Shown one piece after another: positions 5,742-28,188 of a DNA stretch of 64,000 bases (its first letter is position 1; each line of letters begins with the position of its first letter). The translations under genes were made by a program, and so were the position numbers. Source of the DNA: Pseudobdellovibrionaceae bacterium (lineage in GTDB: Bacteria; Bdellovibrionota; Bdellovibrionia; Bdellovibrionales; UBA1609); NCBI GenBank assembly GCA_030591685.1, contig JAUVAX010000001.1, positions 28,873 to 92,872 on the forward strand, in the 5' to 3' direction. The notes beneath the pieces were generated by a model, which saw nothing but the letters and a program-made list of their open reading frames with translations, had not been told where the DNA came from and ran no database searches.

Positions 5742-5868
5742 AAAATAATTATTTTTACTAAAAAAATAAATTAAAAAAAGGAGCCTTTAATAGACTCCAC
5801 AGACCAAAATAATTAATAAATCACAAAGAACAGAACTTTTTATTATTAAAAAATGAAACCTTACAACG

Positions 5869-7269
5869 TCACAATTTTTTAGAGTAAGGCATGTTTGGGT
5901 CCACTTTAACATAATTAATACTTATAACCGGATCCTGCCTATCTAACACATCAGGGCTCACCCCTGAGTGTATTGTGACAGAATTTGTCGTGGCATTATA
6001 TGTCCACCCTGTTTTATCATTTTCGTCCAGTTGAATATCACCGTATTTTACAGAAATTAAAATCTGACCTGTTTCTTTATCAAATTCAGGAAGATCCTTA
6101 AGTTTAATACTTTTTTGTAGGACTCTTTTTTTAATATCAGTCCCTAATTTAGCTAAATCTTCACCCCAATGAGGTGAGTTTAATGGTAAAAATGCTTTTA
6201 CAGGACTACTTGACCTATGAATATCTTGGTTTTGATTTTTTTGAACCACATTAACAAACTCTCTTATCCGTTGAGACACCTTTTCACGAACCTGGCTCCC
6301 TTGTAAATTAGGGTTCACCCGACGACACTGCCCACTTTTATACTTAGGGCATAAAAGCCCTACTGCTGAAATCTTAGAGGGGTCCTTTTTAAACTTAAGG
6401 ACTGCCGCGTACAGGTCTTTAGGGTTCATTAACCCATCCTTACTCCCAACACCTTTTGCCGGCGTTGAATCCTCAGCATCAGAAAGTATGAAAACAACTA
6501 AATGAGCCTCTTTACGGTAAAAACCCATATTAGTGCCCTTAACGTATGAACTAGAAGCATCAAAAGAACTCAAAATTGGCGAAAAGGACTCCTCATAGGC
6601 GGGGCCGAAGGCCACTTTAGTAAACTCACCAGAGTCTTCAATAATATTGTCATCAACAAAACGGGTATCAAAATGACTGTCCATTGTAAACAAAGCCTCA
6701 AGTTGAGTTCTTTGGACATCATTAAACTGAGCTTTGCCCAGTGAATCAAGTATAGCCGACCCGTCTTGTCGCCTGAGCTTTTCTTTTACAACAACACTTT
6801 TTTGAGCATTTCCTCTATGAACATAACGGGGCTTATCCCAAAGAAAGCTCCCCTTTGAATCTCTTAAAGGTCTCAATTCACCTTTTTCAAGAAACTGTAC
6901 ATCACCCGTAACAGGGTGAAGTTTTAATACTTGGTCAATAGAGTCCGTATATCTGATAGAGTCGTAAACCGTAGTGACTCCAATGTGATAGTCCATAACT
7001 AAATTTTCTGCTAATGATTTAGCAAAACTCTCTATATTTTTTTGTACAGTGGTGATCTCATTTTCCATACTTCGAGAATTATCAACTACAAATAAAATAT
7101 CGACCTTAGCATTAAAGTTTACCTTTAAACCCTCAGAGCTATCACTCACGACCTCAACTCTCTGTGCTTCGGGAGGGAGCTCAGGAGGTGACATTAAAAT
7201 AGGTGATTGTTTTACTTTACACCCCGACACCAAAACTACGATCAAAAATCCATACACATAAGCTTTCAT
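5869..7269 (-). CDS. VWA-domain lipoprotein with intact MIDAS (CglB-like adhesin candidate), last gene of the Agl/Glt-like operon
   Basis: Lipobox LVSGC. DILFVVDNSRSM gives a DxSxS MIDAS start. HIGVTT and VVFILSDAEDS are typical of VWA beta-strands. Only 1 nt separates it from the upstream gene. Confidence 0.7.
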   Translation of the reverse strand: MKAYVYGFLIVVLVSGCKVKQSPILMSPPELPPEAQRVEVVSDSSEGLKVNFNAKVDILFVVDNSRSMENEITTVQKNIESFAKSLAENLVMDYHIGVTTVYDSIRYTDSIDQVLKLHPVTGDVQFLEKGELRPLRDSKGSFLWDKPRYVHRGNAQKSVVVKEKLRRQDGSAILDSLGKAQFNDVQRTQLEALFTMDSHFDTRFVDDNIIEDSGEFTKVAFGPAYEESFSPILSSFDASSSYVKGTNMGFYRKEAHLVVFILSDAEDSTPAKGVGSKDGLMNPKDLYAAVLKFKKDPSKISAVGLLCPKYKSGQCRRVNPNLQGSQVREKVSQRIREFVNVVQKNQNQDIHRSSSPVKAFLPLNSPHWGEDLAKLGTDIKKRVLQKSIKLKDLPEFDKETGQILISVKYGDIQLDENDKTGWTYNATTNSVTIHSGVSPDVLDRQDPVISINYVKVDPNMPYSKKL

Positions 7270-7270
7270 A

Positions 7271-8257
7271 TTAAGCCCCTTTCACTTTAGGACAAGAAGA
7301 TGCTTTTACTTTAAAACTCCCCAGCTCATCAATCCAAACTTCGTTGTCATTTACCGGGAAGGTTAAGATTTCTAAATTTTTTGTTGTGCCTGTTTTTGCA
7401 TTACTCATAACAGGCTTATTACTTTGCTCAAATACTCTTTGTATAACTTCGGCTTCAACAACCTGTAGCTTGTCAATGTTATTATTTATAACTTTAAGGT
7501 TCCTCCTGGCTAAGAGGGAAAATCTTTTATATATTTTTCTTTTAAGTGGGCTCAAGCCTTTTGAATTTAATTTTTTATTTTTCACCTTTAACATAAGTGC
7601 TTTAAGTATTTTATCTCTGTAAAAATACGAGGGGAGGGTTTTTAAATAAGGTGCTGCTGATTGAAAATTAAGATCGGATTGACGACTCATTTTAATGATA
7701 TTTTCTATGTCAGAATTATTTTGTTTATTTGATGATATGCTTTGCAGAGATATTATTCTCTCATGATAGCGGGATTTCATTTGTTTTGTTATGTTAAATA
7801 CTCCGCTATAATCACAGACATAGTAACGCGAAAGGGACGCCAAATAATACGAACCCGAACTCACATACTGATCAAACACTGAAGACAACAAAGTCAGTGA
7901 TTCGGCCAAAGCTAAATCATACTGGGCTGTCTTCATATAGGCCCATGCTCTCTCTTCTAGGGCCAAGAGCCACATATCTGAAGACTTAGAAACTTTACTA
8001 TAATACTCAATAGATTTTTTAAACTGTCTGTTTTGATAATAAACTCTTGCGAGATCAATATGTGTCTCATCTAAACGATATGAGTTTTTAATTAAGAGTT
8101 TAAAAGATCTCACTGCAGATTTATTTTTTGAATTCAGAGCCTTTTTTTTGGCTGATAAATATATCCTATCTAAGTCTCTCTGGCTCATTTTAGACGCAAA
8201 GAGATTTCCACCGAAAAAGCTCATAATTAACAAAAGGGAAATTAATTTAAAGCTCAT
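7271..8257 (-). CDS. Secreted TPR-like protein (GltC/NfsC-like position)
   Basis: Signal peptide. TPR-like helices (ARVYYQNRQFKKSIEYYSKV, AWAYMKTAQYDLALAES). 4-nt overlap with the upstream barrel gene. Confidence 0.55.
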   Translation of the reverse strand: MSFKLISLLLIMSFFGGNLFASKMSQRDLDRIYLSAKKKALNSKNKSAVRSFKLLIKNSYRLDETHIDLARVYYQNRQFKKSIEYYSKVSKSSDMWLLALEERAWAYMKTAQYDLALAESLTLLSSVFDQYVSSGSYYLASLSRYYVCDYSGVFNITKQMKSRYHERIISLQSISSNKQNNSDIENIIKMSRQSDLNFQSAAPYLKTLPSYFYRDKILKALMLKVKNKKLNSKGLSPLKRKIYKRFSLLARRNLKVINNNIDKLQVVEAEVIQRVFEQSNKPVMSNAKTGTTKNLEILTFPVNDNEVWIDELGSFKVKASSCPKVKGA

Positions 8258-8994
8258 ATCATTATCCCTATCATAAATGAAACTGACAGCAGGTCCTGAT
8301 CTCGTTCCCCATAGCTTACCTTATCAGTATAGGTTTGATACCTGACCTCTAAACGAGAACTCACATGCTGGGTGTACCATAGTCCAAGCCCTGCTCCTAA
8401 CATGTACGTAGATGTTGGCCCACTTTCTAACTGCATTTGCCCACTACCCAAAAGAGCATATAGGTCAAACTGAGCTACTTTCCAATCAAAGAAATTTAGC
8501 TTTCCGTAAACAGGATACCAACTCACTGTGGCCATAGTTGAGCTTTTCATCAAATCCATTTCAGGCACATACCCAAACAACCCCTCTTGTGAATTTGTAT
8601 TTACCTGGGAGGCTCGATCAAAAATATTCTTTCCCTCTGCATTTAGAGTATTCTTATAATCATAATATCTAACACCCAAAGACCACCGAGGGTTAATGTG
8701 AAACTCTAATTGTGCCCCTGCCGCAGCAGAATCTGTATAAGGATCCCCTCCTGAAATAACATTATAACTAGGTCCAAGTTCAAATCTAAAATTACGATCA
8801 ACCGCACGTTTTTGAACTACTTTTATTTTATGTCTTGATTTATAGGCTCTAATTCTTTTTAAAATAGCGTCATTAGCTCCTAGTGAATTTAGGTTTTTAT
8901 CGGCACTGCGCCTGACTCTACGGTTTTTTTTTGCCTCAACACTTAAGCTCATTATCAAAGATATAGCTATTAATAACACACTGTAGGTTTTCAC
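8254..8994 (-). CDS. Outer-membrane beta-barrel protein (GltA/GltB/Nfs-type, OMP_myx_plus-like)
   Basis: Signal peptide. Alternating-strand pattern (FELGPSY, WSLGVRYYDY, VSWYPVYGKLNFF, LGAGLGLWY, LEVRYQTY) including the PxYGK motif I associate with this barrel family. Confidence 0.6.
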   Translation of the reverse strand: MKTYSVLLIAISLIMSLSVEAKKNRRVRRSADKNLNSLGANDAILKRIRAYKSRHKIKVVQKRAVDRNFRFELGPSYNVISGGDPYTDSAAAGAQLEFHINPRWSLGVRYYDYKNTLNAEGKNIFDRASQVNTNSQEGLFGYVPEMDLMKSSTMATVSWYPVYGKLNFFDWKVAQFDLYALLGSGQMQLESGPTSTYMLGAGLGLWYTQHVSSRLEVRYQTYTDKVSYGERDQDLLSVSFMIGIMI

Positions 8995-9500
8995 TTTACT
9001 GCTCCTTTAGTTTGACGTAAAAATTTTACGCTCACTTTTCTATCATAATACTTGATTCTCTGGCTATTCAGCTCACTGACCTCAAGGGGCTTAAATTCAA
9101 AAATTATATTAAATGTATCTGCAAATAAATCCTCTAAATAATGACTATCAATGGCCCCTGTCATTATGTAAGAACCCTTGTCATTGATAACAGGACTAAG
9201 TTTTAAGTGAGTGATGTGCTTAGCATTAGTCACTGACCAAAGGGTATTAGCTCCTAGCTCTCCCTTAAATTGTATATTAAATGAAAACTGACCCTTGTTA
9301 AGGTTTATCACCTTTGGGGTTTTAATTATTAGCGCATCAGAGGATAAGTAAAAATGCTTTGGGGGTTCGTCAAAATCTTGGGCCACAGGCTCATACTCAT
9401 TTATAAATTTACGTACCTTTGGGTAGTCTTTTTCAGGGTCTGGCCCACTTAAACAACCTACAAATAATACACTGAAAAGCAACATTAATAATCGACTCAT
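8991..9500 (-). CDS. Small lipoprotein, function unknown (GltK-like position)
   Basis: Lipobox LFVGC. 4-nt overlap with the downstream barrel gene and a 1-nt gap to the upstream gene. Confidence 0.5.
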   Translation of the reverse strand: MSRLLMLLFSVLFVGCLSGPDPEKDYPKVRKFINEYEPVAQDFDEPPKHFYLSSDALIIKTPKVINLNKGQFSFNIQFKGELGANTLWSVTNAKHITHLKLSPVINDKGSYIMTGAIDSHYLEDLFADTFNIIFEFKPLEVSELNSQRIKYYDRKVSVKFLRQTKGAVK

Positions 9501-9501
9501 A

Positions 9502-10752
9502 TTAACCTCTCCCTGATCTTCTTAATTCAAGTGGATAGCGAACTTTCACAACTACGTTACCGACAGGCTGTGGAAACTGCCAACTTTTAAATTTCTTTAC
9601 AATACATTTTTCAACTAGTGACGAATGTAGGCTTGAGCTAGCAATGCGCGCTGTACTTACCCTCCCCTTAGTATTAATCAAAAATTTTACAGATATGCGC
9701 CCCGATAAAAGTGGCTTTATTTGAAGCCCCTTTTCATAACAATATGTAATTTGCCCAGAGTTTCTTCTTATAACAGCATCTATAGAGGCCCTATCTAAAC
9801 CGCCCTCGACTATAGACTGCTCGTACGCTGGTAATACAAAAGCCCCACCGGAACCTGTTGAAATCTTATGTTTACCAAACCCCGAAGCTCCTTGTGCGCC
9901 GAGGCCATTATTACCATAGCCCTTACGAGATTGACCCACTCTCGCGCCTTGACCTTGAGTAGTGCTCAGCAGCCCTTTACCAAGTAATGATCTCTGACTG
10001 ACTCCAACACCAGATTTAGAGGATCGGCCATGTCCACTGGCACGCTCAATAGACTTAGTACTAACACCCTTTGGCCCCGACCCCATTGAACCGAGTGCAC
10101 CTAGAGCTCCCATAGCATTTACGTTTTTACTTCTTGATTTAATGCTCTTAGATCTGCGCTTAACGTAGCTCATTTTTTTTCGCAATGAATTATTTCGAAC
10201 TTTAACACGAACACGGCTTCTAGGATTTAGCTTCTTACGGGTAACAAGCTTACGCTTACTTCTTGATACTCTCTTAACTCTCTTTCTAGAGGGCCTTACT
10301 ACACGTTTCTTTTTCTTAATCACAGGTCTATCTTGCTTAACGACTGTCACAACCTGTACAACATCCACCACATCAGGAGTTAAATAATAACCCACACTAA
10401 TAAGCAATAATAACACTATTAAATGAGTCATAAATGACCATTTCATCACCCTCTTAAAAAGGTTGTTATCATCAGAAACTAAAGGTTGTGATCGGTCAAT
10501 ATTCTCTACATTATCTATATATTCTAAAGTTATATCCTCTGACAAAAGAATAGGTCCATCTTTGACTTCGGCCTTACTAATTGACGCCAGGTCTTTATAA
10601 GGCACACTCTCATTATTTAATACTTTTAAGTCAGGAACTATATCAATCTTTTGATCTTGAAGTAAGTATACAATATGAGCCTTAGTGCCATCCCAATGCA
10701 AAAAACGCACAACTTTTTTGTTTTTCTTTAAAACATAATGTCCGTTTAACAT
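9502..10752 (-). CDS. Bitopic inner-membrane protein with TonB-C-like AgmX/PglI-type C-terminal domain (GltG/GltJ-like)
   Basis: About 105-aa cytoplasmic N-terminus, one TM (HLIVLLLLISVGYYL), an extremely K/R-rich linker, then a G/S-rich stretch. C-terminal block: IDAVIRRNSGQITYCYEKGLQIKPLLSGRISVKFLINTKGRVS...VEKCIVKKFKSWQFPQP. Confidence 0.65.
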   Translation of the reverse strand: MLNGHYVLKKNKKVVRFLHWDGTKAHIVYLLQDQKIDIVPDLKVLNNESVPYKDLASISKAEVKDGPILLSEDITLEYIDNVENIDRSQPLVSDDNNLFKRVMKWSFMTHLIVLLLLISVGYYLTPDVVDVVQVVTVVKQDRPVIKKKKRVVRPSRKRVKRVSRSKRKLVTRKKLNPRSRVRVKVRNNSLRKKMSYVKRRSKSIKSRSKNVNAMGALGALGSMGSGPKGVSTKSIERASGHGRSSKSGVGVSQRSLLGKGLLSTTQGQGARVGQSRKGYGNNGLGAQGASGFGKHKISTGSGGAFVLPAYEQSIVEGGLDRASIDAVIRRNSGQITYCYEKGLQIKPLLSGRISVKFLINTKGRVSTARIASSSLHSSLVEKCIVKKFKSWQFPQPVGNVVVKVRYPLELRRSGRG

Positions 10753-10761
10753 AAAATACTC

Positions 10762-11013
10762 CTAATCATAGTTCAAACTCTCTTTAATACGAACTTTAAA
10801 ATTATTTGGCATAGTGATCAAATTATTAAGTTTCTTCTCTGACTCAACATCAACTAAAACTTCACCAGGTGTATTAAACCGACCCTTAACCCCTAAGCCA
10901 TTAAAGTGAATATTAGTAGAGAGGGTGCTGTCATACTTACTTTTAATTTTTGAGTAAACAGATGTTGAAAAAAATAACACTATAATGCATGGAGTAAAAA
11001 TTAATAGCCTCAC
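10762..11013 (-). CDS. Small secreted protein, function unknown (GltF-like position)
   Basis: 83 aa with an N-terminal signal-like hydrophobic segment. 4-nt overlap with the upstream TPR gene. Confidence 0.45.
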   Translation of the reverse strand: MRLLIFTPCIIVLFFSTSVYSKIKSKYDSTLSTNIHFNGLGVKGRFNTPGEVLVDVESEKKLNNLITMPNNFKVRIKESLNYD

Positions 11014-13931
11014 CGGATTACTCCTTTAACTAATTGTTCTCGCACACTCAAATATCCATATAAGCTGTTATTATACTGATAGGTCATTTGACCTCTTAAA
11101 TTATTCAGCAACTTAAGGTCTAATGGATTACTTTTAACCACCGACCAGGCCTTCTTTAGGTTTGGTTTTGAAATTTCTCCGAGCTTAACAAGTCTAAATT
11201 TAATTAAGCGCTGTCTTCTTACCGGAGCTTGGGAGATTAATTTTTTAAGCTGACTTCGTATTACAATTTTTTGATGGTATGTGGATCTTTTCAAAAGGCT
11301 GAATTGAGAGTTTATATTATCAATATGACTCCATATTTTATTTGAAAGCATTAATATACTTTTCATACGATCATTATAGGGAGCTAATTTTCTTTTTACG
11401 TTTTCTAGGTACTTCTTTTTTTGGTCCTTAGTTAGTTTTTTAGGCATTGGGAGTTTTATAAACTCATCCGTAAAACGTCTATACTCACTAGCTAAACGAC
11501 CAAGTGCATAGGCTTGAGACAATACATCTTTTTTTGGTAACTTTAACTTTAAATACTTCTCCATACCATTAAGCAATGCGATTCTTCTTTTCACACCCTT
11601 AGAGATTAAGTAATTGCTAGATGTCCCTATAACTGATCTCAATAGTGGCTTAATTTTAATATCATAGCTGTTTATAAACCCTTCTCGAAAAAGAACCCTA
11701 CCCTCAACGGTATTTCTTATGGATTTATATTTTGTAAACTCTTCGGCTCGCTTAAAATTTTTAAAGCGACCAAATGTTTCCAACAGAGCACTTGCCAAAA
11801 GACTAGGAGTTTTCAATAAAACCCCTTTGATATTAGAAAGCTCTTTCCATGGATATTTTGATTTTAATGCCAAGTGAATTCGGATTTCATTGGCTTTATA
11901 TCGACTTTTGGTCATTTTAATAAACGACTTATAATGCTTTTTTGAATTATATCCTGACAACTCAGCAAGCATACCCAATTTAAGCTGTTGATCTGCTCTC
12001 TTTACTTTTGATACCTTAATTTTTAATAGTGTTTTATAGGCCTTTTTAAATTTAAACTTCAGTTCACTAACAAACAATATTCTTTCAAGCGCATAGTTAC
12101 TTTCTTTTTGATTTACACCCTTAATATTTAATATATCTTTTGCATATTTTTCAATACTATTATGGTCTAAGATTAAGGCCGATAAATTAATTTTAGTTTC
12201 AATATACTTAACCTTCTCTCTCGTCTTTAGATCTGAGTATGAATATATATTTAAACATTTTAGAGATCCATTGATGTCACTTGTAAGTTTTTCTTTTTTA
12301 GATAGAATGCTTAAAGAAATATTATAACACGCATCCCTCGCTAACTTAATGTACTTTACCCTCCTTGAAGGGACTTTGCTTGATAAGACAGGGGCTCTTG
12401 AAAGAATTTTAGTATCCTCTTTTAAAAAAACAAGCGAGCTTAACGCTAGGTCAGATGATTTAATAAGTAGCTTATTTTTAATATTTTTATCTGCGGTCAG
12501 CTTATAGAAGTTTTCAGCTGATAATTTATATTTCTTTTTCTCGTAATCTAGATAGTACAGTTGATACAGTATTTCACTTTTAATCTTTGATTTAGGCTCA
12601 AGATTAAGATAAGCCTCATACGTTGAACGTTTTAAATTTGAATTATTTGACCCTTCAGCTATGCTTATCATTTCAACTAGGGATGCCCTTCTAAGTTTGG
12701 CCTCACTTTTAGTAGACTTAACTATGGCCATTTTTAAATTATCTATGGCCTTTCCCCAAGCTTTACTCTTTTTACTTTGCATAGCTGCTATATAGAATAT
12801 TCCTGATTCTTTTTTAAAGTGGGCTAGGTAAAGATTAATAGCTATTAAGAAGTACTTATCACTTCTATTTTTAATATCTTTATGCCAAAGTATAATAAAA
12901 TTTTTAAATTTAATCTCAATACTTGCGCACTCTTTAAGGCAAGACCCATTGCCCCATAACGCTAATGATTCTCTATAGTGTTTTAAGGCTTGTTTTTTAT
13001 TTTTTATAAAATAATATATCTGGGCCTTTCTGACCGAAACCTCAAGCCTTGTTGACGCGTCATGATCTTTTAATAACAAGTAATAGTCCCACACTCGTAG
13101 GCTAGATCTCCACTGTCCTGTTCTTTGTGTTTCTTCGGCAAGGTAGAATAAATTATCTAATACAACTCCCCTTGGGCTTAAACTCTCAATTTCAATTATT
13201 TCTTTTTTATAAATAGGTCGTCTTGCCATAAAGGTCACTAAATCACGAGACACATCTACATGAAAGGGCTTGTTGTAAACCCCATTGTTACTCAAGTAGC
13301 TTTTTGATTTTAAAATATACTTTAGCGATTTTACAGCCTCTTTTATCTGCCCAATATTCATTTGCGACCATGCAATTTTGTATAGAGCCATTGCTCTTTT
13401 ATTTTTATTTAAATTCATGAATGCGGACTTATAACCTTTAATAGCTTTTTTATATTGATTGTTATTGTAATTAATTTCAGAAAGCTCGTACTCTGATATT
13501 GCAATATAAGATTTTTGAGATTTTCGTTTACTATGCTTATTTAAGCTTAAAAGTGTTATTTTTCTAAGGCGCTCATTAGGGAGTACTTTATACAAATGAG
13601 CCACCTGCAGCAGCATGCGTGATTTCTCTAGGGGCCTTGCTCTTTTTATAGCCTTTTTTAAATAGCTAATCGCAACTGTTCTGTCAGATTTTGACTGAAT
13701 ACACTTAGTACAATTATCTTGAGTTTCTCTCAGAAAGTATAGTCGCGCTCTTTCAGAGTATAAGTCACCAAGACGACGGTAAAGTGACTGTTTTTTTACG
13801 TGATTTTTACCTGTCAGAGAAAGGGCCTTTTCTAGCTTATTAATTACAACTGAGTGGGCATCAATGGTCATCTTCTCAGCTCTGAGAGACACTGTCATTA
13901 ACACTAAAAGGGCAACTACTATTACTTTCAT
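11010..13931 (-). CDS. Large secreted TPR-repeat protein (GltD/GltE-like)
   Basis: 973 aa with a signal peptide. Many TPR-like helix pairs (AMALYKIAWSQMNIGQIKEAVKSLKYIL, KAQIYYFIKNKKQALKHYRESLAL). 4-nt overlap with the upstream ExbD-like gene. Confidence 0.6.
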   Translation of the reverse strand: MKVIVVALLVLMTVSLRAEKMTIDAHSVVINKLEKALSLTGKNHVKKQSLYRRLGDLYSERARLYFLRETQDNCTKCIQSKSDRTVAISYLKKAIKRARPLEKSRMLLQVAHLYKVLPNERLRKITLLSLNKHSKRKSQKSYIAISEYELSEINYNNNQYKKAIKGYKSAFMNLNKNKRAMALYKIAWSQMNIGQIKEAVKSLKYILKSKSYLSNNGVYNKPFHVDVSRDLVTFMARRPIYKKEIIEIESLSPRGVVLDNLFYLAEETQRTGQWRSSLRVWDYYLLLKDHDASTRLEVSVRKAQIYYFIKNKKQALKHYRESLALWGNGSCLKECASIEIKFKNFIILWHKDIKNRSDKYFLIAINLYLAHFKKESGIFYIAAMQSKKSKAWGKAIDNLKMAIVKSTKSEAKLRRASLVEMISIAEGSNNSNLKRSTYEAYLNLEPKSKIKSEILYQLYYLDYEKKKYKLSAENFYKLTADKNIKNKLLIKSSDLALSSLVFLKEDTKILSRAPVLSSKVPSRRVKYIKLARDACYNISLSILSKKEKLTSDINGSLKCLNIYSYSDLKTREKVKYIETKINLSALILDHNSIEKYAKDILNIKGVNQKESNYALERILFVSELKFKFKKAYKTLLKIKVSKVKRADQQLKLGMLAELSGYNSKKHYKSFIKMTKSRYKANEIRIHLALKSKYPWKELSNIKGVLLKTPSLLASALLETFGRFKNFKRAEEFTKYKSIRNTVEGRVLFREGFINSYDIKIKPLLRSVIGTSSNYLISKGVKRRIALLNGMEKYLKLKLPKKDVLSQAYALGRLASEYRRFTDEFIKLPMPKKLTKDQKKKYLENVKRKLAPYNDRMKSILMLSNKIWSHIDNINSQFSLLKRSTYHQKIVIRSQLKKLISQAPVRRQRLIKFRLVKLGEISKPNLKKAWSVVKSNPLDLKLLNNLRGQMTYQYNNSLYGYLSVREQLVKGVIR

Positions 13932-14425
13932 CCGGCCCCCCTAACTCTTAAAACAGCTAATTGTACTTTTGATATATCAAATTCAGAGGCCCAAATCATA
14001 AGTGGGTTGATCATTTTAAAAGATGTTTTTTTGTCTGAAACGATCACAAGTGAAGCCTTTGTTTTATCTTTCATGGCCAATGTTTTTTTTGCATATTTTT
14101 TCATCTCTTTTATAATGGCTCGATCACTTACTCTTTTTTTATCAATAAAGTATTGCTTTCCTTTTATTTGAACAACAAGGCCCCCTTTAAATGTACTTGA
14201 GTTATATGCTTTTGGTATTTTTAATGTTTTGTCTAGGTCTTTTACTTCTGATGTTGCTACTGTATTAACCAGTAGGTAAATCACTAGGATAGCAAACGCA
14301 TCCACCAATGGCGTTAGAATCAATGTCGCAATCACAGCCTTTTTAACTCGCCCCTCTTTGTTTTGTAAAGGAGCTATGTTTTTTAATGGGCTTTGTGCTT
14401 CTAAATGACTGAGTATGCTTCTCAT
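13928..14425 (-). CDS. ExbD/TolR-family protein (AglQ/AglS-like) with conserved TM aspartate
   Basis: TM segment LILTPLVDAFAILVIYLL carries the protonatable Asp. C-terminal ExbD-like fold (SLVIVSDKKTSFKMINPLM). Confidence 0.75.
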   Translation of the reverse strand: MRSILSHLEAQSPLKNIAPLQNKEGRVKKAVIATLILTPLVDAFAILVIYLLVNTVATSEVKDLDKTLKIPKAYNSSTFKGGLVVQIKGKQYFIDKKRVSDRAIIKEMKKYAKKTLAMKDKTKASLVIVSDKKTSFKMINPLMIWASEFDISKVQLAVLRVRGAG

Positions 14426-14445
14426 AAATCCTACCTTATGGCTCC

Positions 14446-14892
14446 CTATAAAGGGGCCACTCCTATGTCTAGGGTTTTTATGGTCTTCACTATATCTATA
14501 ACTGCAATAATACGATCAAAGGATGTGTTGCTATGAGGCGCCACTATAGCATTTTTAATCAATGGGTATCGCGCTATGATCTTATTGATATGCTTTAAAA
14601 GTTGATTGTTAAACTTATTTTTTACTTTGATGTTTTTTATTTTACCTATTACCTTCATTGACCCATCTCTAGTAAATATCTTTATTGATTTTTTATTATT
14701 AAACTGTACCCATATAGATAAGTTTTTACCTGAGTTTAATTTAGTCGTTGGCGCATTACCTACAGATTGAGAGACGGAAAGCGCGCCAACGGGTTGCCAT
14801 ACGACGGTCACAAGAAGAAAGCTCAGTATGACTGCCAATAATGATATGATTGGCAGTAAGTTAATTTCAAAATCTAATGATTTATTAGCCAT
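14446..14892 (-). CDS. ExbD/TolR-family protein lacking the TM aspartate
   Basis: EINLLPIISLLAVILSFLL aligns to the ExbD/TolR TM, with Ser where the Asp is expected. C-terminal VAPHSNTSFDRIIAVIDIV is ExbD-like. Confidence 0.7.
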   Translation of the reverse strand: MANKSLDFEINLLPIISLLAVILSFLLVTVVWQPVGALSVSQSVGNAPTTKLNSGKNLSIWVQFNNKKSIKIFTRDGSMKVIGKIKNIKVKNKFNNQLLKHINKIIARYPLIKNAIVAPHSNTSFDRIIAVIDIVKTIKTLDIGVAPL

Positions 14893-14899
14893 TTTGTTC

Positions 14900-15583
14900 C
14901 TACCTAGCTTTTGTTTTTTTAACAGTTAAGTTATCAAAATTATAATTAAGCCAGTTAAAGGCTCTAAATGCGGCTTGATGTAGGTCTTCTTTTAGTGACT
15001 CACTTCGGCTCTGTAGTATTGCAAACATAACAAGTGATGGTATTGCCATTATTAGTCCGTAGGCTGTTGTGTTCATAGCCATTGAGATACCTTTTGTGAG
15101 CATAATGGATTTTTCAGCATCATTACCATTACTGATGGAGGCAAAGGCTGTGATGAGTCCAACGATGGTACCTAGCAGTCCAAGAAGGGTCCCTACATTA
15201 CCGAGCATTGCTAAAAACCCAGTTCGTTTATCTAGCTTTTCATTTTCAATGAGCAGCATTTCATCCATACGGGCTCTGACTTCGTCTTTGCCACCTAGGT
15301 TAATTGCTGATTGTGTTCCTGCTTTAACGACTCTGTAGATGGGGTTTACTTTATCTTTAATTGAATTGATCTTCATGATTTGCTGTAGGTTGCCTGTTCT
15401 AATGGGTCTCTCGAGTCGATTAACTATTTTTCTTTGTGAGACTTTTCTTAAAACATATAGCTGAATCACTCTTTCTGCGATAATAGCAATGGATACGATT
15501 TGTGCAGCCAGTATGGCCCACATCCATATTCCTCCGTTTGAAAAGGCTTGATATATTAGTGTAAACATATTTGCATCTGCCAT
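14900..15583 (-). CDS. MotA/TolQ/ExbB-family proton channel (AglR-like)
   Basis: LGNVGTLLGLLGTIVGLITAF and GISMAMNTTAYGLIMAIPS are the family signature helices. GAGGAG precedes the ATG. Confidence 0.85.
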   Translation of the reverse strand: MADANMFTLIYQAFSNGGIWMWAILAAQIVSIAIIAERVIQLYVLRKVSQRKIVNRLERPIRTGNLQQIMKINSIKDKVNPIYRVVKAGTQSAINLGGKDEVRARMDEMLLIENEKLDKRTGFLAMLGNVGTLLGLLGTIVGLITAFASISNGNDAEKSIMLTKGISMAMNTTAYGLIMAIPSLVMFAILQSRSESLKEDLHQAAFRAFNWLNYNFDNLTVKKTKAR

Positions 15584-15654
15584 TTTTATAGCTCCTCATT
15601 AAGTACTGCATTGGTTTTGACATTTATTTATTCTCTTGCAGTTGCAATATATAA

Positions 15655-15670
15655 GGCACATTCTGTACCA
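15655..15670 (-). promoter_or_regulatory. Candidate sigma54 -24/-12 element upstream of the Agl/Glt-like operon
   Basis: The reverse complement reads TGGTACAGAATGTGCC, with GG and GC at the consensus spacing (compare TGGCAC-N5-TTGC). It lies about 70 nt upstream of the 15583 start. Short motif, so weak evidence. Confidence 0.3.
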
Positions 15671-15705
15671 CAAGAAATTCGACCTTAGGGGTGTACATAT
15701 TGGAT

Positions 15706-15883
15706 ATGAGTGTGAATTTTGGTAAAATTTTGAAAATGAGTGACAATAATGAGCTCAAATCAGGGCCCCCTGACCCCCTCCCCCAAGGAGTGACGGAGCC
15801 TTTTTCTCCCCCATTTTAGCCACAAGGAAGAGCTGGGGAAGGAGTGACCAAATAATGGAGAAAATGGAGAAAAATGGAGTGAC
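15706..15883 (+). repeat. Array of five GAGTG-core short repeats plus ATGGAG x3 micro-tandem
   Basis: ATGAGTGTGAA (15706-15716), ATGAGTGAC (15736-15744), GGAGTGAC at 15787, 15841 and 15876. ATGGAG at 15855, 15864 and 15874. Confidence 0.7.
15790..15804 (+). repeat. REP-like motif copy 1 (GTGACGGAGCCTTTT), preceded by a C-rich tract
   Basis: Exact 15-mer, also present at 16527-16541. A related GTGACGAAGACC sits at 15879-15890. Confidence 0.7.
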
Positions 15884-16043
15884 GAAGACCTCCTCATGCC
15901 ATTGCAGACAGCAGACAGAGACCTAGCCGTGATTTAAGCGAAAACGCTAGGGGCAATAAAGAGCCCTCAGATACAAGCGAGAAGGGCCTCTAGAGACATT
16001 AGTACTTAATCGTATGTTTATAAAACCTATTGGTCACAATTCC

Positions 16044-16059
16044 TGGCATGAATTATGCT
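16044..16059 (+). promoter_or_regulatory. Candidate sigma54 -24/-12 element upstream of small ORF 16086..16481
   Basis: TGGCATGAATTATGCT matches TGGCAC-N5-TTGC with GG and GC at the correct spacing. It lies about 27 nt upstream of the ATG and AAGGAA RBS. Short motif, so weak evidence. Confidence 0.35.
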
Positions 16060-16085
16060 AATATTACTTGGTAAAGGAACCTTAT

Positions 16086-16481
16086 ATGAAGCCTATATTA
16101 ATGCTAGTTACAAATATTTTATTCACTACTGCCGCTCTTGGGTTTTGGGGTGCTGAGAGTACAGTAACATTTGTTGACCCTAAAATTGGTGGATTCCCTA
16201 TTTATGCAGAGACTTCAAGTACCAATAAAGTTGATGTTGATGAATTGGCTCAAAAGGTGTGTCGAATCAAAGCCCAGGGCCAGGACCGGTCCCCCACATA
16301 CACGAGACTCAGTCTTTCATTGTACACTGACCTGAATTTTGATTTTTCTGAACATGGCACTCTAGCTCGTGTGGTCGTAAGGCACGGCGACCTTTACTCG
16401 GTTGAGTTTAATCCTACCGAGAAAGATTTAAACAAAGAGCTTCTAGTTTTCTCAAAATTAGACTGCATAAAGGACAACTGA
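16086..16481 (+). CDS. Small secreted protein, function unknown
   Basis: ATG at 16086 follows AAGGAA (the track ORF starts at TTG 16068). N-terminal signal-like MKPILMLVTNILFTTAALGFWG. Bracketed by repeat arrays. Confidence 0.5.
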   Translation: MKPILMLVTNILFTTAALGFWGAESTVTFVDPKIGGFPIYAETSSTNKVDVDELAQKVCRIKAQGQDRSPTYTRLSLSLYTDLNFDFSEHGTLARVVVRHGDLYSVEFNPTEKDLNKELLVFSKLDCIKDN

Positions 16482-16496
16482 CGCCCTTCCTCTTCG

Positions 16497-16566
16497 CTTA
16501 CTCCTCCTTACTCCTCTTACTCTTAGGTGACGGAGCCTTTTCACACTCATTTCAAACACTTACTCC
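16497..16566 (-). repeat. Array of GGAGTAAG/GAGTGTGA repeats (inverted relative to the 15706-15883 array), including a CTTACTCCTC tandem
   Basis: CTTACTCCTC at 16497 and 16507, CTTACTCT at 16516, TTCACACTCAT at 16540-16550 (exact reverse complement of 15706-15716), CTTACTCC at 16559. Confidence 0.7.
16527..16541 (+). repeat. REP-like motif copy 2 (GTGACGGAGCCTTTT)
   Basis: Exact 15-mer shared with 15790-15804. Lies just 3' of the small ORF and downstream of the RAYT gene. Confidence 0.7.
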
Positions 16567-16789
16567 CGCCAAACATAAATTAACTTTGAGTTGGTTAAAT
16601 TTCTACAAGCTACTTCTCTTAAATTTCAACATATCCCATAATCATCTTATAAATACACGTAACAGAAGGCTTTTAGCTGCATATAAATATTTATACTCAA
16701 GAATTTGTTATTTCAGCGCAAACTTCACCATAGACACTTAATAAATATCTGACTCTAACGTAGTAAGTAGTTTGTTAATTGATTTTTAA

Positions 16790-17518
16790 CTAGGTTGAGT
16801 TTAGGGCTGTGGATTTCATGAGCACTCGATCCATAAGCTCTTTAGCCTTACCAATCATTTGGTCCTGCCACATAGGGTTGCCGATATACCTTGTATACAT
16901 CCACTTAGAGCCAAAGAGCTCACTTGATAGGTATTTCAAAAAGAGCTTTCTATATTTTGACTGGCGAGCAGACTTTGTCTTCCCAAGTGCTAAGTACCAG
17001 TTCGGCAGAGTTAATAGACTTGTCCAAGCATCCCGTATACCGTGAGCAAAAAATCTGTAGCTTGAGTATTTATAAAGCTTTAGCCCCTCTACACTAACTA
17101 TGTTAGCTCTCACAGGGTTGGCCTCTATGTAAAAGTGAACCCTCATACAGTGTTCTGGGTTTTCAATTAAAGGGGTTTTAGGACGTTCATTGGCAACCTT
17201 ACCAGTGCGCTTAAATATTTTATTAAATGTGTATCCGAACCGAGCATGAGAAACTCTCATAAAACTCGAGAGGTAACTAGAGTCCTCATCATAGCTCATT
17301 TGCATGTGAGCGTGATTGTCCATTAAGCAATAAGAGTAGATCTTAACTTTTGAATTTACGCTTCTATGCTCTAGAGCGTACTTAGTACACTTCATATAGA
17401 GATCTTTTGTCGATTGAGCTTTTAATAAAAATTCACGATTCTGGCAGCGCCAAAACTTATGGATGAAGCCCTGTTCGGGGTGGAGTAAATTGGTTCTTGA
17501 AATACGCATACCCTCCAC
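16790..17518 (-). CDS. REP-associated tyrosine transposase (RAYT) / IS200-like Y1 transposase
   Basis: HUH motif in YSYCLMDNHAHMQM. Catalytic-Tyr block FYIEANPVRANIV, as in RAYT/TnpA-REP proteins. Confidence 0.75.
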   Translation of the reverse strand: MEGMRISRTNLLHPEQGFIHKFWRCQNREFLLKAQSTKDLYMKCTKYALEHRSVNSKVKIYSYCLMDNHAHMQMSYDEDSSYLSSFMRVSHARFGYTFNKIFKRTGKVANERPKTPLIENPEHCMRVHFYIEANPVRANIVSVEGLKLYKYSSYRFFAHGIRDAWTSLLTLPNWYLALGKTKSARQSKYRKLFLKYLSSELFGSKWMYTRYIGNPMWQDQMIGKAKELMDRVLMKSTALNST

Positions 17519-22025: not shown

Positions 22026-22727
22026 TTATTCAAAAGCAACTAGTGAAGAAAACTTACCTTCGTAAATCATTTCATTAGCTCCAGGGGGTTGATAGTAAAC
22101 CTTTAATTGAATGACTTTGTTAAACTCAGTCGAGTTTAAATCCAGATCATGTGATTTTAACATTATAAGTTCTCCTGTTTCTTCGTTCTCTAGAGTGATC
22201 TGAAAAGTATCCGAAAGAGCTAAGTCATCTTGAGTGTACACAGGGTCAGAAATTCGATTCGGAACTTGAGTGTAATATTTAGTAATGGTCTGTCGGCCAA
22301 ATATATTTTCACCTTCCTCATTTAAGGTCACATCAACGATTAAAGAGAACCTCTCTGTTAAAGGATCTGATAAAAATATGACTCGCGCCTCAAGAAGGTA
22401 TTTATAATTTAAATCTCTTTCAACAAAATCTAACCACTCAAAGGCAAACACACTGCCTGGTGAACCCATTGCACTGTTACACTCGCTCTGTGCTGATTGG
22501 GCGCAGCCCTCACCGTAAAAAATAGTGGCGTAATCAACACCGTTTGTGGGGTTATATATTAAATTCTCTGCCTCTGCTTGAGCTGAGGGGGAGAGGTCAC
22601 CTAAAATTTGCTCTAACAGTGTATTGAGCTCTGCAGAGTTGACCGTGGGGGTCGCTGTTCGGCTCTGCCAAGAGCACCCAGTGCCCAAAGCTGCCAACAA
22701 CATTAAAATAGCAAAAGATTTAAACAT
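22026..22727 (-). CDS. Lipoprotein, function unknown
   Basis: Lipobox LGTGC. No recognisable domain. Confidence 0.55.
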   Translation of the reverse strand: MFKSFAILMLLAALGTGCSWQSRTATPTVNSAELNTLLEQILGDLSPSAQAEAENLIYNPTNGVDYATIFYGEGCAQSAQSECNSAMGSPGSVFAFEWLDFVERDLNYKYLLEARVIFLSDPLTERFSLIVDVTLNEEGENIFGRQTITKYYTQVPNRISDPVYTQDDLALSDTFQITLENEETGELIMLKSHDLDLNSTEFNKVIQLKVYYQPPGANEMIYEGKFSSLVAFE

Positions 22728-22741
22728 TTTTTCTCGCTTCC

Positions 22742-23437: not shown

Positions 23438-23464
23438 TTTGCTTTCCTTTTTTTATTTTAAGTT

Positions 23465-28175: not shown

Positions 28176-28188
28176 TGGCGCTGATCCT

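What the first reader, a model, noticed from the sequence alone, without database searches (positions are those of the whole stretch)
5869..15583. Compact single-locus Agl/Glt-type (gliding/Nfs-like) envelope-spanning machine: 10 translationally coupled genes
Ten minus-strand genes run with gaps of 1-20 nt or 4-nt overlaps (8254/8257, 8991/8994, 11010/11013, 13928/13931). In order they encode a MotA/TolQ/ExbB channel, two ExbD/TolR paralogues, a 973-aa TPR protein, an 83-aa secreted protein, a TM protein with a TonB-C-like AgmX/PglI-type domain, a lipoprotein, an OM beta-barrel, a TPR protein and a VWA lipoprotein. This parts list mirrors the Myxococcus xanthus AglRQS motor plus GltA-K/NfsA-H complex, which in M. 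xanthus is spread over three loci. Here motor, inner-membrane, periplasmic, outer-membrane and candidate adhesin modules appear to sit in one ~9.7-kb operon with a single barrel. That makes it a minimal version worth structural and functional dissection. It may not drive gliding at all and could be a new PMF-driven surface machine in a predator.
Basis: partly seen in the sequence, partly recalled or inferred. Interest (0 to 1): 0.8.

Follow-up and report, generated by a model that had tools for sequence, protein, structure and literature searches.

The report
Bdellovibrio-type Agl/Glt gliding gene cluster
This is a real ten-gene operon for a proton-driven, envelope-spanning "gliding-type" machine ending in a surface adhesin, but the same single-locus cluster is already known from Bdellovibrio predators and is conserved in dozens of their genomes, so this copy is a divergent new member rather than a new kind of machine.

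Summary
In detail: ten minus-strand genes (15583→5869) with junctions of +7, +20, −4, −4, +9, +1, −4, −4 and +1 nt. All have Shine-Dalgarno-like sites, and a hairpin plus U7 terminator follows the last gene.

The Agl/Glt reading is largely supported:
- g1–g3 are a TolQ/ExbB-type channel plus two ExbD/TolR paralogues.
- g6 is a GltG-type protein; its AgmX/PglI C-terminal domain scores above the curated cutoff and has a TonB-CTD fold.
- g8 is an OMP_myx_plus barrel, above cutoff.
- g9 is GltC-like (43/43 orthologues hit the model).
- g5 is weakly GltF/CglF-like.
- g10 is a lipobox protein with an invariant DxSxS motif and a VWA fold.

Two assignments are not established. The 973-aa TPR protein (g4) hits only generic TPR models, not GltD/E. 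The g7 lipoprotein is only positionally like GltK.

The novelty claim fails. The same order is colinear in 81 related Bdellovibrionales loci, including complete B. bacteriovorus genomes. The literature already describes four such operons in strain HD100. No TonB-dependent receptor, TolB or Pal is present.

Verdict: a divergent new member of a known kind, interest about 0.3. Minor new points are a conserved terminal VWA lipoprotein, a hypervariable lipoprotein slot, and some clusters without adjacent motor genes.

The parts
14900..15583 (-). g1: TolQ/ExbB/AglR-type proton channel (227 aa, 3 predicted TM segments)
   Evidence: PF01618 MotA_ExbB scores 95 bits against a cutoff of 22.9. The best NCBIfam hits are TolQ and ExbB, both below their equivalog cutoffs. 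Hydropathy peaks lie at about 18-40, 130-148 and 172-190. It is 44-67% identical to the first gene of the related loci.
14446..14892 (-). g2: ExbD/TolR/AglQ-S-type paralogue 1 (148 aa), with Ser in place of the TM Asp
   Evidence: PF02472 scores 33.3 bits against a cutoff of 25.4. The TM position is Asp in 33/47 orthologues and Ser in 14/47, including the window.
13928..14425 (-). g3: ExbD/TolR/AglQ-S-type paralogue 2 (165 aa), TM Asp present
   Evidence: PF02472 scores 35.8 bits. The TM Asp (D42, in 'TPLVDAF') is invariant in 47/47 orthologues. It overlaps g4 by 4 nt.
11010..13931 (-). g4: 973-aa secreted helical/TPR scaffold, in the GltD/E position
   Evidence: It has a signal-peptide-like N-terminus. 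Only sub-threshold TPR hits and a YbgF/CpoB-like TPR segment at residues 131-208 were found. None of 42 orthologues, and none of the more distant relatives, hits a GltD or GltE model. Orthologues of about 985 aa occupy the same slot in all loci. Conserved Cys pairs are C74/C77 and C331/C335.
10762..11013 (-). g5: 83-aa secreted protein, GltF/CglF-like
   Evidence: NF033764 CglF scores 17.8 bits, E 2.5e-3, against a cutoff of 90. Nine of 44 slot orthologues hit CglF, best E 1.1e-7. The conserved C-terminal motif is VE(N/D)EK..(D)LL..R..FKDR. CglF is the same protein as GltF (PMC4488436).
9502..10752 (-). g6: GltG-type bitopic protein (416 aa): cytoplasmic beta-rich N-domain, TM helix, basic/Gly-rich disordered linker, AgmX/PglI (TonB-CTD-like) C-domain
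   Evidence: NF033768 scores 99.1 bits against a cutoff of 40. The GltG model scores 103 bits over its C-terminal part only, against a cutoff of 650. In the AF2 model the N-domain 1-80 has pLDDT about 90, the helix spans 96-124, residues 136-304 are disordered and the CTD is 304-412. Foldseek matches the CTD to TonB C-terminal domains with probability about 1 and target TM 0.55-0.64. C338 and C383 are invariant.
8991..9500 (-). g7: 169-aa lipoprotein in a hypervariable slot (the GltK/CglC position), probably with one cadherin-like beta-sandwich module
   Evidence: The lipobox is LFVGC, with Cys16 invariant across slot proteins. It matches no named family. An exhaustive phmmer search finds four relatives of 162-171 aa, plus giant proteins built of PF12733 cadherin-like repeats. 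A profile of the other slot lipoproteins gives a weak match of 16.7 bits. Slot length ranges from 58 to 588 aa.
8254..8994 (-). g8: single OMP_myx_plus outer-membrane beta-barrel (GltA/B/H family), 246 aa with a basic N-terminal extension
   Evidence: TIGR04565 scores 95.1 bits against a cutoff of 60. PF13505 is sub-threshold. It is 34-54% identical to slot orthologues. No locus has two barrel genes.
7271..8257 (-). g9: GltC-like secreted TPR connector (328 aa)
   Evidence: NF033756 GltC scores 52 bits, E 4.5e-14, matching model positions 325-451 of 622, against a cutoff of 450. All 43 orthologues hit GltC, best E 1.4e-18.
5869..7269 (-). g10: lipoprotein with a MIDAS/VWA domain inserted in a beta-rich domain (candidate surface adhesin; CglB / Bd0875 / Bd1483-like architecture)
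   Evidence: The lipobox Cys17 and D63-x-S65-x-S67 plus D264 are invariant across locus orthologues. Of 37 orthologues, 31 hit NF052240 (Bdellovibrio MIDAS adhesin) and 24 hit CglD, all far below cutoff. The AF2 model has pLDDT 76 and pTM 0.77. The top Foldseek hits are VWA adhesins (SpaC, PitA) and integrin beta headpieces, with probability 1.0 and E about 1e-6.
5780..5798 (-). Intrinsic-terminator-like hairpin (GGAGUCU/AGGCUCC) followed by U7
   Evidence: It lies about 70 nt after the g10 stop codon, between convergent genes.
15584..16067 (-). Upstream non-coding region holding the presumed promoter; three GTCACTCC repeats lie at 15787-15883
   Evidence: All three copies of the octamer in the window lie within 100 nt here, against 0.77 expected per window. 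No function was tested, and the promoter scan was no better than shuffled sequence.

Best explanation
The locus is a member of the Bdellovibrionota 'gliding' (Agl/Glt-type, tonB-like/agl) operon family. It encodes a complete, self-contained, proton-motive-force-driven machine that spans the cell envelope.

Proposed mechanism, by analogy with the M. xanthus Agl-Glt model. The steps are inferred unless marked as shown.

1. g1 forms a TolQ/ExbB-type channel ring around a g2/g3 ExbD/TolR heterodimer. The family membership of these proteins is shown. Only g3 carries the proton-relay Asp, which is also shown.
2. The motor acts on g6, a bitopic GltG-type protein. Its long disordered periplasmic linker ends in an AgmX/PglI TonB-CTD-like domain; both domain and fold are shown.
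3. That domain docks on the large helical/TPR scaffold g4. The small secreted g5 (GltF-like) helps bridge g4 to the GltC-like connector g9.
4. g9 binds the periplasmic N-terminal extension of the single OMP_myx_plus barrel g8. The barrel family is shown.
5. The barrel, together with the lipoprotein g7, presents the MIDAS/VWA lipoprotein g10 at the cell surface as the substratum- or prey-binding adhesin. The VWA fold, MIDAS motif and lipobox are shown; surface exposure is inferred.

The most likely output is force transmission to a surface-bound adhesin. That would give slow gliding on surfaces or on and within prey, including attachment, entry or exit movements.
For: - Family hits above curated cutoffs: MotA_ExbB, two ExbD proteins, the AgmX/PglI C-terminal domain and OMP_myx_plus.
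- Glt-specific sub-threshold hits that hold across orthologue sets: GltC 43/43, CglF/GltF 9/44, and MIDAS adhesin or CglD 31 and 24 of 37.
- Folds: the g6 C-domain matches TonB CTDs, and g10 matches VWA adhesins and integrin beta headpieces.
- The TM Asp is invariant in g3.
- The operon is tight, with SD-like sites and a terminator.
- The gene order is colinear in 81 of 81 Bdellovibrionales loci, including B. bacteriovorus W and several complete genomes.
- Literature: there are four homologous agl/glt clusters in HD100 (PMC2797640; PMC3169522). Their proteins are stage-specifically up-regulated at the early bdelloplast stage and at exit (PMC12546842). Transposon insertions in Bd1481 (aglR), Bd1483 and Bd0838 (aglS) impair biofilm predation or prey attachment (PMC2277423; PMC6561027).
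- The M. xanthus structural model provides the wiring diagram used here (PMC11761067).
Against: - No experiment exists for this organism, and no transcript data.
- g4 could not be linked to GltD or GltE by any profile available here.
- g7 could not be linked to GltK/CglC.
- All equivalog-level Glt models (GltG, GltC, CglF, CglD) score far below their cutoffs, so these are remote relatives, not orthologues.
- GltH, GltI, GltJ, GltK, AglZ and a second or third barrel are absent from the locus. The cytoplasmic coupling used in Myxococcus is therefore not encoded here, and the g6 N-domain is not recognisably FHA.
- A 2026 review still calls the Bdellovibrio gliding machinery 'unidentified' (PMC13104615), so the link between cluster and gliding is itself unproven even in the model species.
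Confidence: 0.72

Rival explanations
1. The hardware is the same, but the output is not locomotion. The machine would be a PMF-driven adhesin-display or prey-attachment device, or an Nfs-like transporter that moves a surface polymer, as in Myxococcus spore-coat assembly. Its role would be prey contact, niche establishment or envelope remodelling rather than gliding.
For: - A Bd0838 (aglS) Tn mutant is attachment-, killing- and rounding-defective (PMC6561027).
- Bd0411-0421 proteins peak inside the early bdelloplast (PMC12546842).
- Luciano et al. note that the core complex occurs in non-gliders.
- The terminal VWA lipoprotein and the hypervariable g7 lipoprotein look like a specificity module.
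- In Myxococcus the same Agl motor serves Nfs (PMC3858216, abstract listed).
Against: - B. bacteriovorus does glide, independently of flagella and pili (stated in PMC13104615).
- Luciano et al. consider any bacterium with AglRQS plus GltD, E, F, G, C, A and B a potential glider.
- Nothing in the sequence distinguishes Glt from Nfs here.
- There are no polysaccharide-export genes in the flanks.
Confidence: 0.22
2. The locus is an ordinary TonB-ExbB-ExbD uptake system or a Tol-Pal-like envelope-maintenance system that has been mis-read as Glt.
For: - g1 scores best against the TolQ and ExbB models.
- g6 has weak TonB_C hits (22.9 bits).
- g4 has a YbgF/CpoB-like TPR segment.
Against: - All TolQ, ExbB, TolR and TonB equivalog scores are far below cutoff.
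- Pfam TonB_C is below its cutoff, whereas the AgmX/PglI domain model is well above its own.
- The only barrel is a 246-aa OMP_myx_plus protein, not a TonB-dependent receptor.
- No TolA, TolB or Pal is present in the operon or its flanks.
- The GltC, CglF and MIDAS lipoprotein components have no place in Ton or Tol systems.
Confidence: 0.03
3. The ten ORFs are not one functional unit: either chance adjacency of unrelated envelope genes, or several separate transcription units.
For: - Internal promoter-like hexamers exist, but no more often than in shuffled sequence.
- Ten related loci lack the adjacent motor genes, which shows that the motor and the Glt part can be separated.
Against: - There are four 4-nt overlaps, and every other gap is 20 nt or less.
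- The order is colinear in 81/81 loci.
- No convincing internal terminator was found.
Confidence: 0.03

Closest known systems
Bdellovibrio bacteriovorus 'tonB-like/agl' gliding clusters (HD100 Bd0412-0420, Bd0828-0838, Bd1473-1483, Bd2368-2377; 'expanded core complex' of Luciano et al. 2011)
   Same: It has the same 10-slot gene order, strand and protein sizes as loci from B. bacteriovorus W and from the complete genomes of strains kdesi, Bd5 and s4 and several HCB isolates. It shares the domain families and the absence of GltH/I/J/K reported for Bdellovibrio.
   Different: The sequences are highly diverged: 44-67% identity for g1, 28-36% for g6 and 21-44% for g10. The source is an unnamed lineage of about 38% GC. 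g7 is short (169 aa against a median of about 350), and g2 has Ser instead of the TM Asp. I could not determine which of the four HD100 paralogues it corresponds to.
Myxococcus xanthus Agl-Glt focal-adhesion gliding machinery (AglRQS, GltA-K, CglB)
   Same: It has a TolQ/R-type motor and a GltG-type protein with an AgmX/PglI TonB-CTD-like tail. It also has an OMP_myx_plus barrel, a GltC-like connector, a GltF/CglF-like small protein, and a VWA lipoprotein adhesin. A ~170-aa lipoprotein gene sits next to the barrel gene, as cglC/gltK does.
   Different: - It is encoded at one locus rather than three or more.
- It has one barrel instead of GltA, GltB and GltH.
- There is no GltI, GltJ or AglZ in the locus.
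- g6 has a ~100-aa non-FHA N-domain instead of two FHA domains.
- There is a single ~973-aa scaffold where Myxococcus has GltD plus GltE, and homology to either is unproven.
- The adhesin is encoded within the operon.
- All equivalog scores are far below cutoff.
Bdellovibrio MIDAS-family lipoprotein adhesins Bd0875 / Bd1483 (Tyson et al. 2024)
   Same: g10 has a lipobox and a DxSxS MIDAS motif. [quoted passage not shown] Of 37 orthologues, 31 hit the NF052240 model.
   Different: The hits are about 24 bits against a cutoff of 700 and cover only the DxSxS region. g10 is therefore a distant relative, not an orthologue of Bd0875. It also carries a ~55-residue low-confidence insertion at residues 165-220.
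TonB-ExbB-ExbD and Tol-Pal systems
   Same: They share the stator-like 5:2-type motor family and a TonB-CTD-like periplasmic domain. g4 has a YbgF/CpoB-like TPR segment.
   Different: There is no TonB-dependent receptor and no TolA, TolB or Pal. Glt-specific components are present instead.

Membership tests
Bdellovibrionota agl/glt 'gliding' operon family | Conserved gene order: channel, two ExbD/TolR proteins, ~985-aa TPR protein, ~90-aa secreted protein, GltG-like protein, lipoprotein, barrel, GltC-like protein, VWA lipoprotein | tested here: met
   All 81 related loci are colinear and on the same strand. Of 52 loci with enough upstream flank, 42 have g1-g3. Of 53 with enough downstream flank, 45 have g10. 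The set includes complete B. bacteriovorus genomes.
Bdellovibrionota agl/glt 'gliding' operon family | Taxonomic setting: the relatives are Bdellovibrionales, Bdellovibrionaceae or Pseudobdellovibrionaceae | tested here: met
   All 80 best loci from 185,579 species-representative genomes carry such titles. Named protein hits are Bdellovibrio or Bdellovibrionaceae.
M. xanthus Agl-Glt machinery | AglR/AglQ/AglS-type motor: a TolQ/ExbB channel plus two TolR/ExbD paralogues with a TM Asp | tested here: met
   PF01618 scores 95 bits; PF02472 scores 33 and 36 bits. The Asp is invariant in g3 and replaced by Ser in g2.
M. xanthus Agl-Glt machinery | [quoted passage not shown] | tested here: met
   NF033768 scores 99 bits against a cutoff of 40. 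The TonB-CTD fold is confirmed. The equivalog GltG model is not met (103 bits against 650).
M. xanthus Agl-Glt machinery | OMP_myx_plus outer-membrane barrels forming a GltA/GltB/GltH heterocomplex | tested here: inconclusive
   One barrel is present and above cutoff (TIGR04565, 95 bits against 60). There is only one barrel gene in this and every related locus, so the three-barrel heterocomplex cannot form from operon products.
M. xanthus Agl-Glt machinery | GltC periplasmic TPR connector | tested here: inconclusive
   NF033756 scores 52 bits, E 4.5e-14, covering only model positions 325-451 of 622, against a cutoff of 450. All 43 orthologues hit it. This indicates family-level relatedness, not equivalog membership.
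M. xanthus Agl-Glt machinery | GltD and GltE TPR scaffold proteins | tested here: inconclusive
   g4 sits in the right position and is a secreted ~1000-aa helical/TPR protein. However, neither it, its 41 orthologues, nor its more distant relatives hit any GltD or GltE model. I could not confirm that such models exist in the library, and I had no M. xanthus sequences for a direct comparison.
M. xanthus Agl-Glt machinery | GltF/CglF small periplasmic protein | tested here: inconclusive
   NF033764 scores 17.8 bits against a cutoff of 90. Nine of 44 slot orthologues hit it, best E 1.1e-7.
M. xanthus Agl-Glt machinery | GltK/CglC OM lipoprotein and CglB VWA lipoprotein adhesin | tested here: inconclusive
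   g7 is a 169-aa lipoprotein next to the barrel gene (mature CglC spans residues 20-172), but it has no detectable similarity to any named family. g10 is a VWA/MIDAS lipoprotein. Direct homology to CglB was not testable, and only weak CglD hits were found.
M. xanthus Agl-Glt machinery | Cytoplasmic platform components (GltI, GltJ, AglZ) and FHA domains on GltG | tested here: not met
   None is encoded in the operon or its flanks. The g6 N-domain gives no FHA match in Pfam or Foldseek. This is consistent with the reported absence of GltH, I, J and K from Bdellovibrio.
M. xanthus Agl-Glt machinery | Required for gliding motility | not testable with these tools
   This needs genetics and microscopy.
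TonB-ExbBD uptake / Tol-Pal | A TonB-dependent receptor partner, or TolA/TolB/Pal; equivalog-level TolQ/TolR/ExbB/TonB scores | tested here: not met
   No such genes are in the operon or its flanks. TolQ scores 77 bits against 221, ExbB 58 against 206, TolR 24 against 127, and Pfam TonB_C 22.9 against 24.6.

The most novel reading that the evidence does not exclude
The outer-membrane end of these clusters may be a swappable specificity cassette bolted onto a conserved motor and scaffold. The cassette would be the hypervariable cadherin-like lipoprotein g7 plus the operon-encoded MIDAS/VWA lipoprotein g10. Paralogous or motor-less clusters (10 of 52 loci lack adjacent g1-g3) would share one Agl-type motor in trans, as Glt and Nfs do in Myxococcus. 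They would present different adhesins for different substrata or prey surfaces and for different life-cycle stages. On this reading the window's copy is a naturally minimal version, with a 169-aa g7, one barrel and a single-Asp stator. That would make it a good template for reconstituting a whole Agl-Glt-type machine.
Probability: 0.3. Interest if true: 0.55.

Novelty: new member of a known kind. Interest (0 to 1): 0.3.

Why it matters
The machinery, motor and adhesins behind Bdellovibrio gliding are still described as unidentified (PMC13104615). Gliding there is tied to prey invasion and exit. A compact operon with one barrel and an operon-encoded adhesin, conserved across the order, is the obvious candidate for that machinery. 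It is also simpler than the multi-locus system of 17 or more proteins in Myxococcus, which makes it easier to study structurally. This particular copy adds a very divergent sequence. That is useful for covariation and AlphaFold-Multimer work, and for defining which residues and parts are truly invariant. Examples are the g3 Asp, the g6 Cys pair, the g10 DxSxS motif and lipobox, and the g4 Cys pairs. It does not reveal a new kind of system.

Tried and rejected
- Source contig look-up by exact protein: not on record.
- PDB sequence search with g10: no hit at E ≤ 1. Only the fold comparison worked.
- Linking g4 to GltD or GltE: I tried NCBIfam on 42 orthologues, a profile search of 5.8 billion proteins, and NCBIfam on the distant hits. 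Only generic TPR and YbgF-type matches came back.
- Linking g7 to GltK/CglC or any other family: NCBIfam and Pfam on 43 slot proteins gave nothing, and BLAST of the window's g7 against the other slot proteins gave nothing. Only a weak profile match and cadherin-like repeat relatives were found.
- Mapping to a specific HD100 cluster, and testing whether Bd1483 equals the terminal VWA gene: each locus holds only one g10-type gene. Bd1481 is annotated aglR, so the numbering does not fit simply. This is unresolved. Lambert et al. 2011 (PMC3133215) is not held in the library.
- TonB or Tol-Pal reading: rejected (see rival explanations).
- Paralogous copies elsewhere in the window: none.
- Rfam: no RNA families in the window.
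- Promoter scan: no better than shuffled sequence, so no promoter is assigned.

Full report
**Observation.** Reading from the 5' end they are:
- g1, 14900-15583 (227 aa)
- g2, 14446-14892 (148 aa)
- g3, 13928-14425 (165 aa)
- g4, 11010-13931 (973 aa)
- g5, 10762-11013 (83 aa)
- g6, 9502-10752 (416 aa)
- g7, 8991-9500 (169 aa)
- g8, 8254-8994 (246 aa)
- g9, 7271-8257 (328 aa)
- g10, 5869-7269 (466 aa)

The junctions are +7, +20, −4, −4, +9, +1, −4, −4 and +1 nt, and each start codon has a purine-rich Shine-Dalgarno-like motif. A 7-bp hairpin followed by U7 lies at 5798-5780, about 70 nt after the last stop codon. A 484-nt non-coding region precedes g1. The flanking genes are unrelated housekeeping or mobile-element genes: an acyl-CoA dehydrogenase, an HD-domain protein, a CheY-like regulator, RlmI, a REP-transposase-like gene, YifB and XerD.

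**What the proteins are.**
- g1 is a MotA/TolQ/ExbB-family channel (PF01618, 95 bits) with three hydrophobic segments.
- g2 and g3 are ExbD/TolR-family proteins (33 and 36 bits). The transmembrane proton-relay Asp is invariant in g3 (47/47 orthologues). In g2 it is Asp in 33/47 and Ser in 14/47, and the window has Ser. The stator axle here would therefore be an asymmetric heterodimer.
- g6 carries the AgmX/PglI C-terminal domain (NF033768, 99 bits against a cutoff of 40). It aligns to the C-terminal 230 positions of the GltG model (103 bits against an equivalog cutoff of 650). Its AF2 model has a confident β-rich N-domain (residues 1-80), a TM helix (96-124), a disordered basic/Gly-rich linker (136-304) and a confident C-domain. 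Foldseek matches the C-domain to TonB C-terminal domains with probability about 1 and target TM 0.55-0.64. The N-domain matches nothing and is not recognisably FHA.
- g8 is an OMP_myx_plus barrel (TIGR04565, 95 bits against a cutoff of 60).
- g9 hits the GltC model (52 bits, E 4.5e-14, partial), as do all 43 orthologues tested.
- g5 weakly hits CglF. Nine of 44 slot orthologues do so, with E down to 1e-7. CglF is the same protein as GltF (PMC4488436).
- g10 has no Pfam hit. Its orthologue alignment shows an invariant lipobox Cys17 and an invariant D63-x-S65-x-S67 plus D264. Of 37 orthologues, 31 hit the Bdellovibrio MIDAS-adhesin model and 24 hit CglD, all far below cutoff. The AF2 model (pLDDT 76, pTM 0.77) has N- and C-terminal β-strands flanking an α/β domain. 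Its best structural matches are the VWA pilus adhesins SpaC and PitA and integrin β headpieces, with probability 1.0 and E about 1e-6, although global TM-scores are only about 0.3. This fits the published description of Bd0875 and Bd1483 as a lipobox plus a MIDAS domain inserted into a small β-rich domain (PMC11003981).

**What could not be established.**
- g4 is a secreted ~1000-aa helical/TPR protein in the position of gltD/gltE. Neither g4, its 41 orthologues, nor more distant relatives found by a profile search hit any GltD or GltE model. They hit only generic TPR models and a YbgF/CpoB-like segment.
- g7 is a lipoprotein in the position of gltK/cglC and of similar size; mature CglC spans residues 20-172. 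Every protein in this slot is a lipoprotein, and the slot is hypervariable in length, from 58 to 588 aa. None matches a named family.
- An exhaustive search gives the window's g7 only four same-sized relatives, plus matches of its core (about residues 33-116) to PF12733 cadherin-like β-sandwich repeats in giant proteins. A profile of the other slot proteins matches it only weakly (16.7 bits).

**Related loci.** A GltG-family profile retrieved 80 loci from species-representative genomes, all titled Bdellovibrionales, Bdellovibrionaceae, Pseudobdellovibrionaceae or Bdellovibrio. Three more loci came from exact-protein look-ups.
- In all 81 non-redundant loci, the detectable genes are colinear and on one strand.
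- Protein sizes are nearly constant: about 225, 150, 163, 985, 90 and 410 aa, then the variable slot, then about 240, 350 or 500, and 414-470 aa.
- Of 52 loci with enough upstream sequence, 42 carry g1-g3 and 10 have none.
- Of 53 loci with enough downstream sequence, 45 carry g10.
- No locus has two barrel genes.
- B. bacteriovorus W and several complete B. bacteriovorus and Bdellovibrio sp. genomes show the identical 10-slot layout.
- The window's proteins are distant from all of these: g1 is at most 67% identical and g6 at most 36%. The window's genome was not among the representatives. The closest locus is a Bdellovibrionaceae MAG (L032), which also has a short g7 of 172 aa.

**Literature.** B. 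bacteriovorus HD100 was reported in 2010 to have four homologous 'tonB-like/agl' operons: Bd0412-0420, Bd0828-0838, Bd1473-1483 and Bd2368-2377 (PMC2797640). [quoted passage not shown] Bd0828-0838 contains homologues of AglRQS and GltD, E, F, G, C, A and B but lacks GltH, I, J and K (PMC3169522).
- Proteomics shows stage-specific induction of Bd0411-0421 (early bdelloplast) and Bd2368-2377 (exit) (PMC12546842).
- Transposon insertions in Bd1481 (aglR) and Bd1483 reduce biofilm predation (PMC2277423).
- An insertion in Bd0838 (aglS) abolishes prey attachment (PMC6561027).

A single-locus Agl/Glt-type machine in a bdellovibrio is therefore established knowledge. What remains open, according to a 2026 review, is proof of which proteins form the motor, the force transmission and the adhesin (PMC13104615).

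**Mechanism.** The mechanism is transferred from the AlphaFold-based Myxococcus model (PMC11761067). The g1 ring with the g2/g3 axle converts proton flow into movement. g6 links that movement, through its long linker and TonB-CTD-like head, to the g4 scaffold. g5 helps bridge g4 to g9, and g9 grips the periplasmic N-terminal extension of barrel g8. The barrel and lipoprotein g7 then expose the VWA lipoprotein g10, which binds the substratum or prey through its MIDAS site. The family and fold assignments for g1-g3, g6, g8, g9 and g10 are shown here. All contacts, the surface exposure of g10 and the motility output are inferred.

**Rivals.**
- A non-locomotory role, such as adhesin display for prey attachment or Nfs-like polymer transport, uses the same hardware and cannot be excluded (confidence about 0.2).
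- A plain TonB/ExbBD or Tol-Pal system fails its defining features. There is no TonB-dependent receptor and no TolA, TolB or Pal. The equivalog scores are sub-threshold, and Glt-specific parts are present.

**Verdict.** The feature is a divergent new member of a known and widespread cluster type, not a new or unusually minimal system. Three points may be modestly new:
- The terminal MIDAS/VWA lipoprotein is a conserved, operon-encoded component.
- There is a hypervariable lipoprotein slot at the GltK position.
- Some clusters lack adjacent motor genes.

Interest is about 0.3.

Noticed in passing
window 15787-15883: The octamer GGAGTGAC (GTCACTCC on the operon's strand) occurs three times in the whole 64-kb window. 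All three copies lie within 100 nt, 200-300 nt upstream of the g1 start, against 0.77 copies expected per window. It could be an operator or activator site for the operon, or part of a repeat element.
   Followed up: partly
window 15689-16567: Two repeat pairs bracket an unannotated TTG-start ORF at 16068-16481 (+, 137 aa) that has no family hit. One pair is the imperfect 28-nt inverted repeat at 15689-15716 and 16540-16567. The other is the exact 15-nt direct repeat GTGACGGAGCCTTTT at 15790-15804 and 16527-16541. This may be a small inserted element between the operon's promoter region and the neighbouring transposase-like gene.
   Followed up: partly
window 16790-17518 (-): A 242-aa ORF shows a sub-threshold match to REP-associated tyrosine transposase (NF047646, 39 bits against a cutoff of 80). 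It lies next to the repeats noted above.
   Followed up: no
window 25077-31654 (-): This is an RND efflux operon. It holds an AcrB-family pump (1032 aa, PF00873, 572 bits), an OEP/TolC-like outer-membrane factor (473 aa), and two adjacent ORFs (244 and 437 aa) with no Pfam hit. One of those is presumably the periplasmic adaptor.
   Followed up: no
window 22026-24247 (-): Three consecutive ORFs of 233, 231 and 260 aa have no Pfam hit, and the first also has no NCBIfam hit.
   Followed up: no
window 11000-15000: The operon, especially g4, is more AT-rich (29.5-35% GC) than its flanks (39-44% GC). This could reflect the Lys/Asn-rich proteins or a different history for the cluster.
   Followed up: no
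window 14446-14892 (g2) and the related loci: The first ExbD/TolR paralogue has lost the transmembrane Asp (replaced by Ser) in the window and in 14/47 orthologues, mostly uncultured Bdellovibrionales MAGs. The second paralogue keeps it in 47/47.
   Followed up: yes
L002, L005, L009, L013, L016, L021, L023, L038, L042, L070: Ten related loci carry g4-g10 but have no motor genes (g1-g3) anywhere in the flanks held. These are mostly Pseudobdellovibrionaceae, marine TARA or unclassified Bdellovibrionales MAGs. Several instead have a conserved ~263-aa ORF upstream of g4. This suggests the motor is supplied in trans.
   Followed up: partly
window 9502-10752 (g6), residues 1-80: The cytoplasmic N-domain of the GltG-like protein is confidently predicted as a small β-rich fold (pLDDT about 90) with conserved G12, R16 and R35. 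It has no PDB match and no FHA signature, unlike M. xanthus GltG. Its cytoplasmic partner is unknown.
   Followed up: partly
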